From a virus, in IMG/VR virus record IMGVR_UViG_3300035671_000001, positions 18,506 through 82,505 of that record: a stretch of DNA of 64,000 bases; one strand, 5' to 3'. The stretch's first letter is position 1; each line of letters opens with the position of its first letter. The position numbers were made by a program, and so were the translations under genes. Positions 13,154 through 24,964 of the stretch are shown here, in pieces. The notes under the pieces were generated by a model that made no database searches, had not been told where the DNA came from, and worked only from the letters and a program-made list of their open reading frames with translations.

Positions 13154-13327
13154 ATGTCACTCAACGAAGCAATCGCCGTTGTAAAGGCGAATGGCTACCG
13201 CGTGAGCAAGCCGAAGGCGACGAAGAAAGTTGCCCCGCGCTTGAACGCAGTCGGTCGGCCGTTCTCGTCGTCCTACGATCCCAACTACAAAATGAAATAC
13301 AAGCCAAAGCGCTACGCCTACCCGTGA
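13154..13327 (+). CDS. small basic hypothetical protein
   Basis: 57-aa ORF behind a leader RBS. Confidence 0.6.
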   Translation: MSLNEAIAVVKANGYRVSKPKATKKVAPRLNAVGRPFSSSYDPNYKMKYKPKRYAYP

Positions 13328-13420
13328 ACAGCGCAGAAGGCAGCCGCGTGCTGCCTTCGACAGTGTTCATTCGAACGCTACGCCTCTTGCAAATTGGCGT
13401 CCCTCACTGGAGTCACTACA
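13324..13420 (+). promoter_or_regulatory. repeated structured leader element
   Basis: TGAACA-GAAGGCAGC/GCTGCCTTC-CAGTGTTCA, TTGCAA hairpin, GGAGTCAC. Confidence 0.65.
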
Positions 13421-14317
13421 ATGAATAAACCAATCAAAATCGCAACGCCGCTCTCTCGAAAGGCGGTGCTTGTCTCTGTGAATATCTCGCAGTGGACGGC
13501 GCGAAAGTTGGATCGCAAGGTCACCGACGAAGTTAACCGCGCGCACAACGCGGCCAAGGACGCCGGGCGATACAACAAGCTCTTGATCGAGGCCGAGCAC
13601 TTGGCCGAAGTCAACAAGCTGGTTTCGAGTGCCAGGAGCTTGCACTACAGCATGACGCGGCCGTGGGCGGACGAGGGTCCGCGCATTCTGCCAAACGCGC
13701 TCTACTCGAAGTTCACTGACGCATTCCGTAACTTGAAGCGTGAGTTTCAGATTGCGGCTGATGCGTTCTGCGCCGGCTATCCGAGCTTCGTTGAAGAGCG
13801 GAAGAAATCTTTGAACGGCTTGTTCAAAGAAGCGGACTATCCGTCAGCGAACGACATCCGCAACAAGTTCAAGCTTGAATTGAACGTGTTGCCATTGCCA
13901 GACGCAGAGGACTTCCGCACCGATCTTGATCCCGACACGCTCGCGGACATCAAACGCGAGATGAGCGAGACTTCCGGCAAGGTGCTTGACGATGCAATGA
14001 AACAAACATTCGTTGAGATCACCGAGCTGGTCGGCCACATGGCCAAGAAGTTGAACGAGCAAACGGCCAAGACCAAGCAGAAAGGCGAGCGCAAATTCTA
14101 TCTCGACTCGCTCGTCAACAACGTGCGCGACTTGGCTGACTTGTTGCCTGCCTTCAATCTGACTGACGATCCGAAGCTCACCGCTATCACCAACCGCATT
14201 GCTAAGGAGCTATGCGTGGAAGATGCGAAGGAGCTGCGGAAGAATGACGAAGCTGCCAAGACAGTCGCCAAAAGCGCTGACGAGATCGTGGCCGAGGTGG
14301 CCAAATTCCTCGGCTGA
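13421..14317 (+). CDS. DUF3150-like phage protein
   Basis: AVLVSVNISQWTARKLD, YNKLL and TRPW..GPRILP motifs; this family is usually found next to AAA/VWA genes. Confidence 0.65.
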   Translation: MNKPIKIATPLSRKAVLVSVNISQWTARKLDRKVTDEVNRAHNAAKDAGRYNKLLIEAEHLAEVNKLVSSARSLHYSMTRPWADEGPRILPNALYSKFTDAFRNLKREFQIAADAFCAGYPSFVEERKKSLNGLFKEADYPSANDIRNKFKLELNVLPLPDAEDFRTDLDPDTLADIKREMSETSGKVLDDAMKQTFVEITELVGHMAKKLNEQTAKTKQKGERKFYLDSLVNNVRDLADLLPAFNLTDDPKLTAITNRIAKELCVEDAKELRKNDEAAKTVAKSADEIVAEVAKFLG

Positions 14318-14333
14318 TGATACTCTGGTGCTC

Positions 14334-14373
14334 GCGAGCCACTGCCTCGGAGAGTACCAAAGAACGAGAGCGA
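14334..14373 (+). ncRNA. solitary TIGR-like guide unit
   Basis: GCGAGCC-ACTGCCTCG-GAGAGTACC-AAAGAACGA-GAGCGA, same repeats and spacing as the array. Confidence 0.85.
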
Positions 14374-14467
14374 TACTAAGTGGGCCGTCCGAAAGCGCGG
14401 CCCATCATAGTGTTGCGGACTGCAACATTCCCCGCTGCAACGGGGCAATTTAATACGGAGTCACCAA
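14372..14467 (+). promoter_or_regulatory. repeated structured leader element
   Basis: GATACTA-TGGGCCG/CGGCCCA-TAGTGTT, CTGCAA hairpin, GGAGTCAC. Confidence 0.6.
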
Positions 14468-15931
14468 ATGCATAACGACAAACATGCGATGGATCGTGTC
14501 CTAAAGGCGCGCTCCGCGCTGATATTGGCCCGCCGTTTTTACGGCGTACTGGTGTCGAATGTTGAGCCCGTTCTTTCGCATGACGTTCCGACGGCCGCGA
14601 CGAACGGCAAGAAGCATTTCTGGAATCCCGATTTCATCGCTGAACTGACGCAGGCACGTCTTGAGTTTGTGCAAGCGCATGAGAGCGAACACGATGCGCG
14701 CCACCATGGTACGCGTCGCGGCGATCGCGATCCGAAAAAGTGGAATGAGGCCACCGACTTTGGGATCAATATCGATCTCAAGGACGAGGGCTTTGATGTT
14801 CCGCCATGGGCGTTGCTTGACGAGCGATTCCGAGGCATGAGCGCCGAGGATATCTACCGCATGCGCGAGCTTGACGAACAGAACAACAAGCCGCAGCCGC
14901 AGCCCGAGCCTGAGCCCGAACAGGGTGAGGATGAGGGCGACGACGCCGACACCGACGAGGACAAGGGCGACGAGCCTGAAGCTTCCGACGAGGAAGGTGA
15001 CGAGGAAGGCGACGAGGGCCAAGGCGACGACGGTGAAGACGGCGACGAAGAAGGCAAGGGTGAAGGCCCGGCCGACGACGGCGATGAGGAAACCGACGGC
15101 GGCCAAGGCGCTGGCGACAGCGAAGCGGAAGGCGACGGCACGGGCGAAGGCACGGGCAGCGCTGACGGCGACGCTGATGGTGAGCCCGGCGAGGGCCAGC
15201 CGCAATCGTCCGGTGATCCCGGCCGCTGCGGTGAGGTGCTCGACGCGGCTGAAGACGCTGGCGATCTCGCTGAGATCGATCAGAAGTGGGAACGCACGGT
15301 ACGGCAGGCGGCTTCGATGGCGAAAGCGATCGGGCAGCTTCCGGGTCATGTCTCCCGCGACATCGAACGGGCCAACAATCCTGGCCAGGACTGGCGCGAA
15401 GTTCTCCGCGCTTGGTTCGATCAAGGCTCGCTGCAAGTCGAGACTTGGAACCGGCCGAACCGACGCTTTGTCGGGGCTGGCTTGTTCCTTCCCGGCAAGC
15501 GGCGGGACGGTATCAACCGGGTTGCGTTTCTGATCGATACGAGCGGATCGATGGACACCATCGCGCTGGCTTGTATCAGGAACGAAGCGCAGGCCGCGCT
15601 TGATGACGGTGCGATTGATGAGGTGATCGCCGTGTACGGTGACACGCAAGTCACTCGCGTCGACACTTGGCGCACGGGCGACGAGATCGAGTTCGATCCC
15701 CGTGGTGGTGGCGGCACGCGCTTGCGTCCGCTGTTCGATTATGTGGCCGAGCAGGCTGACGATTGCTCTCTGATCGTTTGCTTTACGGATATGGAATTCG
15801 AAGATTTGAATTCCACCGAGCCTCCGGCTTGTCCGGTGCTGTTCGCAGCGACGGGCTATCCCGACAAGGTTCGCAGATATCTTGCCGATGCTCCTTGGGG
15901 AGCGGCTGGCATTGATGTCGGCGCCCACTGA
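14468..15931 (+). CDS. DUF2201-like metallopeptidase-VWA protein with acidic linker
   Basis: PTAATNG, HESEH (HEXXH), D/E/G-rich linker, IDTSGSM MIDAS, GGGGT, FTD. Confidence 0.85.
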   Translation: MHNDKHAMDRVLKARSALILARRFYGVLVSNVEPVLSHDVPTAATNGKKHFWNPDFIAELTQARLEFVQAHESEHDARHHGTRRGDRDPKKWNEATDFGINIDLKDEGFDVPPWALLDERFRGMSAEDIYRMRELDEQNNKPQPQPEPEPEQGEDEGDDADTDEDKGDEPEASDEEGDEEGDEGQGDDGEDGDEEGKGEGPADDGDEETDGGQGAGDSEAEGDGTGEGTGSADGDADGEPGEGQPQSSGDPGRCGEVLDAAEDAGDLAEIDQKWERTVRQAASMAKAIGQLPGHVSRDIERANNPGQDWREVLRAWFDQGSLQVETWNRPNRRFVGAGLFLPGKRRDGINRVAFLIDTSGSMDTIALACIRNEAQAALDDGAIDEVIAVYGDTQVTRVDTWRTGDEIEFDPRGGGGTRLRPLFDYVAEQADDCSLIVCFTDMEFEDLNSTEPPACPVLFAATGYPDKVRRYLADAPWGAAGIDVGAH

Positions 15932-22765: not shown

Positions 22766-24964
22766 ATGGCGATGCAGTTCAGCACATGGATGACGCGTTG
22801 GGACCCGAACGAGTACACCTTGTTCCGGCATCGCCTGCGCGGCGTGCAGTTCATCGGCCCCGACGTCATGCGGCGCTGGGACGTCACGCTGGCGACGAAC
22901 AGCATCGACCTCAACGATCCGATTATTCCTGCCTTCAAGGACGCGCTGATCAAGGAGGGCATCCTCCTGCCCGCGCGCGCGGAGTTGATCTTCGCGGCGG
23001 AGACAGGAGGCGAGCCTCCAGCCGAAGGGCAAGGGCCGCAAGGTCCGGCGGGACCGCCCGGCGCGACTGGGCCAGCGGGGCCAGCAGGGCCAGCAGGGCC
23101 AGCAGGGCCAGCGGGTCCACCGGGCAGCGGAGCTGGTGGTGGAATCGAAGAGGCGCCGATCGACGGCCAGCTCTACGGCCGCAAGGATGCGGCGTGGTCG
23201 CAGGTCACTGGAACGGGCGGACAGCCGGGGCCGGCAGGGCCTCCGGGACCGGCAGGCGCGGACGGCAAGGACGGCAAGGACGGTAAGGACGGCAAAGACG
23301 GTGCGCAGGGGCCGCAAGGTGATCAGGGTCCGCAGGGCACGCAGGGACCGGCAGGACCGGCCGGGGCCGAGGGCGTGCAGGGTCCGGCAGGTCAAGGTGG
23401 CGTGCAGGGCGTGCAGGGTGAGCCGGGACCGCAGGGATCGCCTGGGCTGAATGGTGCGCCGGGGTTGCCGGGATCACCGGGTGCGCAAGGCCCGACGGGC
23501 GCGGACGGCGCGCCAGGAGTTGGACTGCCGGGCGCGGCAGGGCCGCAAGGTTTACAGGGACCGGCGGGCGTGGACGGTGCGCAGGGTCCGGCTGGTCCCG
23601 AGGGCGCGGTCGGCCCGCAGGGCGTCGCGGGCGGAGTTGGTCCGCAGGGAATCCAAGGACCCGGAGGCCCGCAAGGCGTGCAAGGCGAGCCGGGGTCGAT
23701 CGGCCCCGCCGGCGCGCAGGGTGCGCAGGGCATGCAGGGGCCGTCCGGTGACACTGTCACGATCATCGGCAGCTTCAGTAACAAAGCGATCGCTGATCTA
23801 CCGCCGTCAGGCTACGTGCCTGCGGATTGGGATTCGCCCGGCGTGCCGCCTCTGGGCAACCAGATGGCGAACGGCCAGGGCTTGTTGCACACGCCGACGC
23901 AAACGGTTTGCTTGTGGGTTGGTCCAACGCTCACGCCCTCGGGTTGGGTCGAGCTGGGGAATGTGCAAGGTCCGATTGGGCCGACTGGTGCGGCGGGGCC
24001 AGCAGGCGCGCAAGGTCCACAAGGTGTGCAAGGTCCGCCGGGAGCTGATGCTGCGCCGGGTCCAACGGGAGCAACCGGCGCGGCTGGTCCACAAGGGCCG
24101 CAAGGTGATCCGGGTGCGCAGGGTATTCAGGGCATACCGGGATCACCGGGCGCTGCCGGAGCGCAGGGCGCGCAAGGCCCGCAAGGCATCGCTGGTCCGC
24201 AGGGCGCCAAGGGCGATCCTGGAACGCCGGGCCTGACTGGCGCGCAGGGTCCGAAGGGCGATACCGGTGCGCAGGGAACGCCGGGATCGACGGGCGCGCA
24301 GGGTCCGGCCGGAACGCAAGGCGTGCAAGGCGTGCAGGGCGTGCCGGGTCCGACTGCGGTGTCGGCGAATGCAGGCAACACCGCGACGCTCGGCACCGAC
24401 AATCTGATCTATGTGCCGACGCTGCCTCCGGCCTCTAACGCTACGCCGACGATGGACGGCACGGCGACGGTTGGTGTTGCGACGGCCTGGGCGCGCGGCG
24501 ACCATGTGCATCCGAGCGACACCTCGCGCATGGCGAAGGTCGGTACGACAGCCGTTGGCAACGCGGCGGCCGGCGAGATCGGCGAGGTGCTCTCGACCAG
24601 CGTCACCACCGGCGTCACGCTGGCCAGCGGCACGGCGGCGAACGTCGGGACGCTGAGCCTGACCCCGGGCGACTGGGACGTGAGCGCGCAGCTCGTGTTC
24701 AACCCCGGCACCAACCTCACCATCATGGCGGCGGCGATCTCGCTGACCTCGGCGACACTGCCAACAGCAGCGCAGCTCGCAGCGGGCACCGGGGCGATGC
24801 AGCAGTTGCGCGCATCGTTCGCGGCCTCGGCGGCCGAGATGCTGCAGAGCGGGTCGTGCCGCGTGAACGTCAGCACGACCACGACCGTCTACATGGTGGC
24901 GATGGTGACCGGCACGGGGACGTGGACGGGGACCGGCTTCATCAGTGCGCGCAGGCGGCGCTGA
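22766..24964 (+). CDS. collagen-like triple-helix virion protein
   Basis: Long Gly-X-Y runs, [13 protein letters not shown] motif, [10 protein letters not shown], beta-rich C-terminus. Confidence 0.85.

What the first reader, a model, noticed from the sequence alone, without database searches (positions are those of the whole stretch)
14239..14373. Solitary guide unit sits next to its own, synonymously recoded, target
Seen: one complete unit at 14334-14373, 8 kb from the array, with A=ACTGCCTCG and B=AAAGAACGA. B+revcomp(A) gives a-AAG-AAC-GAC-GAG-GCA-Gt (KNDEA). The adjacent DUF3150-like gene reads g-AAG-AAT-GAC-GAA-GCT-Gc (KNDEA) at 14239-14256, about 85 bp upstream. That is 13 of the central 16 nt identical, with all three internal mismatches at synonymous third positions. 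Inference: the guide targets the homologous allele in related phages while the linked resident allele is immune. This is the layout of free-standing homing endonucleases, but RNA-guided and served in trans by Tas. I do not know of this being described.
Basis: partly seen in the sequence, partly recalled or inferred. Interest (0 to 1): 0.95.

Follow-up and report, generated by a model that had tools for sequence, protein, structure and literature searches.

The report
Lone TIGR guide beside recoded target
A soil phage carries a single guide-RNA unit of the TIGR-Tas type just behind a gene whose own end it almost matches, differing only at silent codon positions. Three more guides in the same genome do the same, which gives this newly described RNA-guided system its first candidate natural targets, probably rival versions of the phage's own genes.

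Summary
Window 14334-14373 is a complete, solitary TIGR guide unit. It lies 16 nt after the stop of a DUF3150-like gene and before a strong hairpin. A nuclease-less TasA and about 80 further units lie elsewhere in this 82.5-kb soil phage.

The unit's predicted 16-bp target (spacer B + revcomp of spacer A) matches the gene's own 3' end, 78 nt upstream, at 13/16. All three mismatches are synonymous. Alone this is only suggestive (p about 0.01-0.02).

Three more units of the same genome show the same layout: a RecE-like gene (14/16), tas itself (14/16) and a 100-aa gene (13/16). That is 4 cis pairs against 0.26 expected (0/5000 permutations) and none in four control geometries. Another phage supplies a fifth pair.

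"Aimed at a rival allele, own allele immune" is the best fit but is unproven:
- No homolog in IMG/VR, JGI metagenomes or GTDB genomes carries the perfect site; the nearest relative is only 78% identical.
- TasA has no nuclease.
- Three other multi-array TIGR phage records show no cis pairs.

This scan reported the same pattern on other DNA (e1-6035209, e1-6035212). [quoted passage not shown]
13421..14317 (+). DUF3150-like gene (298 aa) that carries the near-target in its last 26 codons
   Evidence: ORF with a GGAG ribosome-binding site. Weak Pfam DUF3150 match, E 3.5e-4. 489 homologs at E<=1e-30, many labelled PF11348.
14239..14256 (+). Resident near-target GAAGAATGACGAAGCTGC (K-N-D-E-A). The central 16 bp, 14240-14255, match the guide's target at 13/16.
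   Evidence: the three internal mismatches are all synonymous third positions. At N and E the resident uses the genome's minor codon, where the guide target has the preferred one.
14334..14373 (+). Solitary TIGR unit: 5'-truncated edge GCGAGCC (14334-14340), spacer A ACTGCCTCG (14341-14349), loop repeat GAGAGTACC (14350-14358), spacer B AAAGAACGA (14359-14367), 3'-truncated edge GAGCGA (14368-14373)
   Evidence: The first base of each 9-mer is A in 71/82 A spacers and 77/82 B spacers, so the effective spacers are 8 nt.
14370..14416 (+). Strong hairpin directly behind the unit (core GGGCCG...CGGCCC, 14382-14403). Probable transcript end, but without a U tract.
   Evidence: Fold of 14318-14420: -46.4 kcal/mol, z -4.9. 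Not scored as an intrinsic terminator. Relatives have stop, hairpin, next gene, without the unit.
3565..4353 (+). tas gene: nuclease-less TasA (262 aa), the protein expected to load the solitary guide in trans
   Evidence: Matches the Nop part and C-terminus of the 331-aa chain 9mty_A (residues 125-260, E 1.5e-10) and TasH, and IS621 only at E 0.017. Only 36 residues precede the match, so there is no room for RuvC or HNH.
3157..3560 (+). Upstream TIGR array (about 11 units of period 36)
4341..6280 (+). Downstream TIGR array (about 50 units, some with expanded edge repeats)
4377..4421 (+). Second unit of the downstream array (A ACACGGACA, B ACGATCATG). Its target nearly matches the 3' end of tas.
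4329..4346 (-). Near-target in the last codons of tas (H-G-H-M-I): 15/18 overall, 14/16 centrally. Both internal mismatches are synonymous (CAT/CAC, ATT/ATC).

Best explanation
The unit is a working single-guide TIGR locus.

How it is made (inferred). It is transcribed as the 3' tail of the DUF3150-like mRNA, cut out as a 36-nt tigRNA, and loaded onto the phage's nuclease-less TasA, which is encoded 10 kb away.

What it recognises. Its two 8-nt spacers together read the 16-bp duplex AAGAACGA|CGAGGCAG. That is a version of the K-N-D-E-A stretch of the same gene written in the genome's preferred codons. The phage's own copy, 78 nt upstream, differs at three silent positions. By the published numbering one of these is seed position 5 of spacer A, so the own copy is probably not bound.

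Most likely role. The guide is aimed at the corresponding allele of closely related phages that enter the same cell. TasA binding would silence transcription or block the rival DNA. The guide sits beside its own immune allele because tight linkage keeps guide and immunity together through recombination, and lets the guide travel with the immune allele when a rival genome is rescued by recombination.

Shown here: the unit, the geometry, the near-match, its synonymous nature, its recurrence, and the absence of the unit in relatives.

Inferred: expression, loading, non-binding of the resident site, the existence of the targeted allele, and the competitive effect.
For: - Canonical unit with array-type truncated edges and a trailing hairpin. 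This matches the published description of array ends (PMC12045711).
- TasA is present in the same genome. Other TasA proteins bind DNA and repress transcription under RNA guidance (bioRxiv 10.64898/2026.09.09.750476).
- Four cis pairs: genome units 8541, 32837 (this finding), 22882 and 12733. Observed 4 against 0.26 expected, 0/5000 permutations, and 0 in four control geometries.
- Near-self hits whose mismatches are all synonymous: 6 of 84 in the right geometry against 3 of 245 in the controls.
- No guide has a self site better than 14/16. The five cis pairs have 2-3 mismatches each, as expected if perfect self matches are avoided.
- In the RecE-like pair the guide spells ATG (Met) where the resident has CTG (Leu). 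A 76%-identical relative has ATG.
- The spacer-B half AAGAACGA is exact in 5 of 8 relatives of the DUF3150-like gene, while the resident has AAGAATGA.
- At 4 of 6 silent differences the resident holds the minor codon.
- None of 8 relatives has the unit.
- An independent phage (L126/G005) has a mini-array right after a stop codon. Its first guide matches the upstream gene's end at 13/16, with 2 of 3 mismatches silent.
- Precedent: virus mini-CRISPR arrays target close relatives near the array, and the self loci are mutated (PMC6858448).
Against: - No sequence with the perfect target in a homologous gene was found:
  - none in the 8 IMG/VR homolog loci;
  - none among the exact 16-mer hits in IMG/VR for any of the four guides;
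  - none in the 19-mer context search of JGI metagenomes or GTDB genomes.
- Of the top 120 protein homologs only one (P0002, 78%) even encodes KNDEA followed by a G-initial codon, and its DNA could not be fetched.
- TasA has no nuclease, so harm to a rival is inferred only.
- There are no expression or processing data.
- The pattern is not general: 0 of 74 units in three other multi-array TIGR phage records have a cis site. In 80 partial loci there were 3 cis hits against 0-1 in controls.
- Guides of this and related phages show no excess of matches to each other's genomes over control geometries.
- The RecE-like and tas pairs have no mismatch at the presumed seed, so those resident sites might still be bound.
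Confidence: 0.48

Rival explanations
1. Footprint of guide birth. New TIGR units are made from DNA next to the place where they are inserted: the phage's own DNA, or a relative's during recombination. The near-match is then a historical trace. The gene has since drifted, or was selected to escape self-binding, at silent sites. The guide need not have any present target.
For: - All cis pairs involve units at or within two units of an array boundary, or solitary units.
- How TIGR spacers are acquired is unknown (PMC12045711; Xu 2026).
- No present-day target was found anywhere.
- Silent-only differences are what purifying selection on the gene would leave.
- The same unexplained proximity exists for mini-CRISPR arrays.
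Against: - Turning an 18-bp duplex into A-loop-B needs one half inverted and the order of the halves swapped. No simple duplication or slippage gives it.
- Repeats and edges of the solitary units are intact, which argues for maintenance.
- The guide spells codons and one residue (Met) seen in relatives rather than in the resident. That fits an allelic source as well as an ancestral one.
- This rival and the best explanation are not exclusive.
Confidence: 0.2
2. Self-regulation. TasA loaded with the solitary guide binds the phage's own gene end despite the mismatches. It acts as a weak road-block that feeds back on read-through into the guide and the downstream operon. For the tas pair, the feedback would act on tas and array expression.
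For: - TasA proteins repress transcription when guided to a gene.
- One cis pair lies in tas itself, just before its array, a natural place for autoregulation.
- The RecE-like and tas sites match at 14/16 with no mismatch at the presumed seed positions.
- From my own knowledge: partial-match autoregulation is known for Cas9 with a long tracrRNA form.
Against: - A nuclease-free binder has no reason to keep mismatches. If binding were selected, silent positions could match perfectly, yet all five pairs keep 2-3 mismatches and none has 0-1.
- In this finding's pair there are 3 central mismatches, including presumed seed position 5 of spacer A.
- A road-block about 20 codons before a stop codon would mainly yield truncated mRNAs.
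Confidence: 0.12
3. Coincidence. A purine-rich, codon-like 16-mer happens to resemble nearby coding sequence. Third-position mismatches are common between unrelated in-phase coding stretches.
For: - The window has 14 sites of at least 13/18 and three of at least 13/16 for this target. One unrelated site (AAGAAGGAGGAGGCCG) also differs only at third positions.
- For this pair alone, 21/2000 shuffles and 1/82 other guides do as well.
- Genome-wide near-self counts do not exceed control geometries.
Against: - Four cis pairs against 0.26 expected, 0/5000 permutations, and zero in four control geometries.
- The same layout (stop codon, unit, hairpin, site about 60 nt before the stop) occurs at the second solitary unit, with 14/16.
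- All-synonymous hits are enriched only in the right geometry.
Confidence: 0.05

Closest known systems
Dual-repeat TIGR-TasA systems (Faure et al. 2025, PMC12045711; Xu et al. 2026, bioRxiv 10.64898/2026.09.09.750476)
   Same: [quoted passage not shown]
- Repeats end in CC(A).
- Arrays start and end with truncated edges.
- A solo-Nop TasA is encoded between the arrays.
- The two spacers read opposite strands of one contiguous site.
- It is phage-borne.
   Different: - Here a single unit stands alone 8 kb from the arrays, in the 3' tail of an unrelated gene. Further solitary units and mini-arrays are scattered over the genome.
- The papers read here describe arrays next to tas and call the natural targets unknown.
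- A guide lying beside a silently recoded copy of its own target is not mentioned in them.
Virus-borne mini-CRISPR arrays of Sulfolobales viruses SPV1/SPV2 (Medvedeva et al. 2019, PMC6858448)
   Same: - One or two guides in a virus genome.
- Guides aimed at close relatives.
- The orthologous self locus carries point mutations that prevent self-targeting.
- Targets lie close to the mini-array, with the reason for the proximity left open.
   Different: - Those are CRISPR guides that use the host's Cas nucleases.
- 100% matches to the rival virus were observed there.
- Here the system is TIGR with the phage's own nuclease-free effector, and the rival allele has not been seen.
Free-standing homing endonucleases of T-even phages (intron-less homing, marker exclusion; from my own knowledge)
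   Same: - A selfish element sits next to the site it recognises in relatives.
- The resident site is protected by sequence differences.
- The element is sporadically present among relatives.
- A RecE/RecT-type recombination module is present in the phage.
   Different: - No endonuclease: specificity comes from a 36-nt RNA and a nuclease-less TasA encoded elsewhere.
- Cleavage, co-conversion and spread are not shown.
VIPR systems (bioRxiv 10.64898/2026.04.26.720920 and 10.64898/2026.10.15.759431)
   Same: - Phage-encoded RNA-guided silencing of competing mobile elements.
- Silent third-position changes are recognised as the escape route from sequence-directed targeting.
   Different: - Unrelated protein (a RAMP) and guide grammar (GGY/NN repeats that skip the wobble base).
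- The authors found no near-self hits, whereas here near-self cis hits are the finding.

Membership tests
Dual-repeat TIGR unit (tigRNA gene) | Edge repeat, about 9-nt spacer A, loop repeat, about 9-nt spacer B, edge repeat, with the repeats of the genome's own arrays | tested here: met
   0 mismatches to GCGAGCC-N9-GAGAGYACC and a 3' GAGCGA. The same repeats occur in about 80 other units of the genome.
Dual-repeat TIGR unit (tigRNA gene) | The locus begins with a 5'-truncated edge and ends with a 3'-truncated edge followed by a terminator | tested here: met
   The edges are truncated as at the true array ends. A strong hairpin follows (-46.4 kcal/mol, z -4.9). It has no U tract, so it is not a textbook intrinsic terminator.
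Dual-repeat TIGR unit (tigRNA gene) | A Tas (Nop-domain) protein in the same genome | tested here: met
   The 262-aa protein at 3565-4353 matches chain 9mty_A (E 1.5e-10) and TasH.
Dual-repeat TIGR unit (tigRNA gene) | Transcribed and processed to a 36-nt RNA bound by Tas | not testable with these tools
   No RNA run holds this DNA. Only one DNA run was found, probably the source sample.
TasA (nuclease-less Tas) | Nop domain without an N-terminal RuvC or HNH domain | tested here: met
   The alignment to the 331-aa chain 9mty_A starts at query residue 37 and chain residue 125. No nuclease family was found in Pfam.
Homing-endonuclease-like selfish element | Uses a site-specific DNA endonuclease | tested here: not met
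   The effector is TasA, which has no nuclease domain. No nuclease gene adjoins the unit.
Homing-endonuclease-like selfish element | The recognition site is present in relatives that lack the element and altered in the carrier | tested here: inconclusive
   The carrier site is altered at 3 silent positions. None of 8 relatives lacking the unit has the perfect site, but they are only 64-73% identical. Database-wide searches found none in a homolog.
Homing-endonuclease-like selfish element | Sporadic presence among relatives | tested here: met
   0 of 8 relatives have a unit behind the gene. The exact unit occurs nowhere else in JGI metagenome contigs.
Virus-borne mini guide arrays used in interviral conflict | Guides match closely related viruses perfectly | tested here: inconclusive
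   No close relative of this phage is in any collection searched (best 78% amino-acid identity). No perfect match was found.
Virus-borne mini guide arrays used in interviral conflict | The self locus orthologous to the target is mutated, and the target lies near the mini-array | tested here: met
   Four cis pairs within 250 nt, each with 2-3 mismatches, mostly silent.

The most novel reading that the evidence does not exclude
Scattered solitary TIGR units are selfish 'guide plus immune allele' cassettes. TasA binding to the rival allele stalls or breaks that genome. Rescue by recombination with the carrier (the phage has a RecE/RecT-type module) then copies the immune allele together with the adjacent guide. 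The guide would thus spread through related phages as an RNA-guided, nuclease-free counterpart of intron-less homing.
Probability: 0.2. Interest if true: 0.92.

Novelty: new variant of a known kind. Interest (0 to 1): 0.78.

Why it matters
Both the founding TIGR-Tas paper and the 2026 follow-up state that the natural targets and the biological role of these systems are unknown. They attribute this to spacers being too short for database matching.

Cis pairs avoid that problem. The neighbouring gene tells what each guide is written against, and the statistics hold within one genome. From these pairs the report draws four points:
- The published two-strand geometry is confirmed on natural sequence.
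- In this clade the effective guide is 8+8 nt.
- TasA systems appear to serve conflict between sister phages, with self-immunity by silent recoding.
- Candidate site pairs (perfect against resident) are ready for binding and repression assays.

The result also extends to a second, unrelated RNA-guided system the unexplained nearness of virus-borne CRISPR guides to their targets. That suggests a general rule of linkage between a guide and its immune allele.

Tried and rejected
The DNA of the one homolog that could carry the perfect site (P0002, a Logan contig) could not be read.
- blastn of 13300-14500 against GenBank phages gave no match.
- Only one run holds the DNA (a soil metagenome, probably the source). 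Its contigs show a divergent relative whose gene end and spacer region do not align. This says nothing about alleles.
- Exact target 16-mers in IMG/VR gave 22, 21, 6 and 4 hits for the four guides. All lie outside homologs and are at chance level.
- The exact unit in JGI metagenomes gave 0 hits.
- The 19-mer context search gave 40 metagenome and 30 genome hits, none in a homolog. Eleven of the 30 genome hits are in Mesorhizobium records; nine or more of them are one conserved locus, counted as one chance event.
- Guides of this phage and of 80 loci from phages with the same repeats were cross-matched. There is no excess over control geometries.
- Genome-wide near-self counts show no excess.
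- The suggestion in earlier notes that array guides aim at the AAA/DUF3150/vWA cassette rests on three 14/16 hits. Enrichment in the early region is not significant (p 0.11-0.13).
- A third solitary unit (genome 14794, minus strand) has only 12/16, with a 1-nt gap, 28 nt upstream (5 of 81 other guides do as well). The first unit of the mini-array at genome 6317 has 12/16. Neither was counted.
- An RNA-level explanation (spacer A pairing with the upstream mRNA) was rejected, because spacer B is identical to the mRNA, not complementary to it.
- A CAST-like fixed insertion distance was rejected: distances from site to unit range from 23 to 148 nt.
- My first crude gene caller picked antisense frames. 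It was replaced by a codon-usage model, and the RecE-like gene was set by hand.

Full report
**What is there.** The window is bases 18506-82505 of an 82.5-kb IMG/VR virus record, rated complete by CheckV. The only run that holds the DNA is a soil metagenome.

At 3565-4353 lies a 262-aa protein. Residues 37-173 and its C-terminus match the Nop part of a solved 331-aa chain, 9mty_A (residues 125-260, E 1.5e-10). It also matches TasH (E 5.8e-7) and, only at E 0.017, the IS621 transposase. Only 36 residues precede the match, so it is a nuclease-less TasA.

The tas gene is flanked by long dual-repeat TIGR arrays: edge GAGCGAGCC, loop GAGAGYACC, period 36. The part of the genome before the window holds more mini-arrays and solitary units. 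The first base of nearly every 9-nt spacer is A (71/82 and 77/82). The repeats therefore end in CCA, as in the published box C, and the effective spacers are 8 nt.

**The unit of the finding.**
- 14334-14373 reads GCGAGCC-ACTGCCTCG-GAGAGTACC-AAAGAACGA-GAGCGA.
- It has no mismatch in the core pattern. Its truncated edges are those found at the ends of the genome's true arrays.
- It starts 16 nt after the stop codon of a DUF3150-like gene (13421-14317).
- A strong hairpin follows (-46.4 kcal/mol, z -4.9). The hairpin has no U tract.
- There is no room for a promoter of its own, so I infer that it is the 3' tail of the gene's mRNA.
- Eight relatives of the gene (64-73% identity) go straight from the stop codon to a hairpin to the next gene, without a unit.

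**Geometry.** Faure et al. report that spacer A pairs with one strand and spacer B with the adjacent part of the other. Cuts fall 5' of the base paired to spacer position 5 and leave 8-nt 3' overhangs. Swapping A and B still works.

**The near-match.** The 18-mer AAAGAACGACGAGGCAGT meets GAAGAATGACGAAGCTGC at 14239-14256.
- Identity is 13/18 overall and 13/16 centrally. The site is in frame as K-N-D-E-A, and the three inner mismatches are synonymous.
- The outer two positions are the box-C A's. Over the four pairs below they match at chance level (2/8).
- The match alone is weak evidence. The window has 14 sites of at least 13/18, and one unrelated 13/16 site also differs only at third positions.
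- Being within 300 nt upstream of the unit happens for 21/2000 shuffled targets and 1/82 other guides.

**Replication inside the genome.** Scanning every unit's target against the whole genome turned up further cases of the same layout.
- *Solitary unit at genome 8541.* It lies 9 nt after the stop of a PDDEXK/DUF3799 (RecE-like) gene and is followed by a hairpin. Its target matches the gene about 60 nt before the stop at 15/18 (14/16). One difference is silent. The other is Leu in the resident against Met in the guide's target, and a 76% relative has Met.
My first mask had hidden this site.
- *Unit at genome 12733.* It matches a 100-aa gene 148 nt behind its array at 13/16, all mismatches silent.

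The permutation test dealt the targets out anew among the unit positions:

| Measure | Result |
|---|---|
| Units with a site of at least 13/16 within 250 nt | 4 observed, 0.26 expected |
| Permutations reaching the observed value | 0 of 5000 |
| Cis hits in the four control geometries (revcomp A + B, A+B, B+A, reversed) | 0 |

Near-self hits whose mismatches are all synonymous number 6/84 in the right geometry and 3/245 in the controls. No self site exceeds 14/16.

**Outside this genome.** The same repeats occur in more than 110 stretches of IMG/VR.
- In 80 such loci there are 3 cis hits, against 0-1 in controls.
- One of these is clear. In L126/G005 a mini-array follows a stop codon directly, and its first guide matches the upstream gene's end at 13/16, with two of three differences silent.
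- Three other multi-array phage records read whole (G001, G002 and G004; G001 and G004 share units) have no cis pair among 74 units.
- The pattern is therefore real but not universal.

**Is the targeted allele out there?** I could not find it.
- The eight relatives do not carry it. Five of them do have the exact spacer-B half AAGAACGA, where the resident has AAGAATGA.
- Among the top 120 protein homologs, 8 encode KNDEA. Apart from the query itself, only one (78% identical) has the G-initial next codon that a perfect site needs.
- Exact searches of IMG/VR, JGI metagenomes and GTDB genomes gave only chance-level hits outside homologs.
- Nothing closer than 78% identity exists in 5.8 billion proteins, so this failure has little power.

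**Interpretation.** The data say that each of these guides is written against a sequence that encodes the same peptide as its neighbour but with other codons. At 4 of 6 silent differences the guide's target has the genome's preferred codon. The resident copies always keep at least two mismatches.
- This fits guides aimed at sister alleles, with self-immunity by silent recoding. Synonymous change is the escape route that the VIPR authors also point to for inter-phage targeting.
- It also mirrors virus-borne mini-CRISPR arrays. There the self loci are mutated and the targets lie near the arrays, for reasons left open.
- Linkage offers a reason for the nearness. A guide separated from its immune allele by recombination would turn on its own genome. 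A guide next to the immune allele is carried along when a rival is rescued by recombination.
- TasA has no nuclease. TasA proteins are shown to bind and silence, not to cut. Homing in the strict sense is therefore unproven.
- Rival readings remain open: a trace of how units are born, weak self-regulation, and coincidence. They are scored separately in this report.

**Earlier notes of this scan.** Other first readers listed the RecE-like and tas pairs on this genome; I found the former independently and checked the latter. Follow-up agents reported solitary stem-loop TIGR guides aimed at kin in another soil phage (e1-6035209, e1-6035212), which I did not verify.

Noticed in passing
window 4557-4601, 4669-4713, 5108-5152: Three units have spacer B = AAGCGAGCC, which is the edge repeat itself. 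The edge repeat that follows the first two is an expanded variant (GAGCGTTTCAGCC, GAGCGTTAAGCC); after the third it differs by one base (GTGCGAGCC). Earlier notes read this as guides against TIGR arrays.
   Followed up: no
L009 16813-17181 (minus strand) versus window 5946-6170: A 10-unit array on the opposite strand, before the window, shares one identical unit (AACCAGCGC/AGATCGCCG) and one near-identical unit (GTGGAGTCT or GTGAAGTCT / ATATCGGCG) with the end of the main array. It is a partial inverted duplication of guides.
   Followed up: no
L009 7573-10145: The second solitary unit sits inside a recombination module: a PDDEXK/DUF3799 (RecE-like) gene, the unit, a small gene, then a RecT-family gene. 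The phage thus brings its own recombination functions.
   Followed up: partly
window 14319-14324 and 14372-14377: The hexamer GATACT occurs on both sides of the solitary unit. It could be microhomology or a duplication left by the insertion, or chance.
   Followed up: no
window 4330-4347 and the Tas C-termini of loci L063-L143: The tas site hit by the array's second guide encodes the C-terminal G-H-x-H-x-I motif. This motif is conserved in 40-odd Tas relatives and aligns with the C-terminal loop of 9mty_A, which the 2026 preprint links to tigRNA processing.
   Followed up: partly
L245, L250, L254, L260, L262, L264, L265, L267, L271 (Mesorhizobium genomes): One locus conserved across Mesorhizobium species contains AAAGAACGACGAGGCAG, 17 of the 18 bases of the full predicted target. 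This is at chance level for the size of the collection, and the host of the phage is unknown.
   Followed up: no
G001 and G004 (records behind L067 and L108): Two other TIGR phages share several identical guide units and, like this genome, have many scattered mini-arrays. Such a pair could show how guides and target genes change between close relatives.
   Followed up: no
window 23069-24344: Long runs of 9-nt periodic repeats (GGGCCAGCA and similar) lie inside the 732-aa ORF 22766-24964. They look like collagen-like Gly-X-Y repeats of a tail fibre.
   Followed up: no
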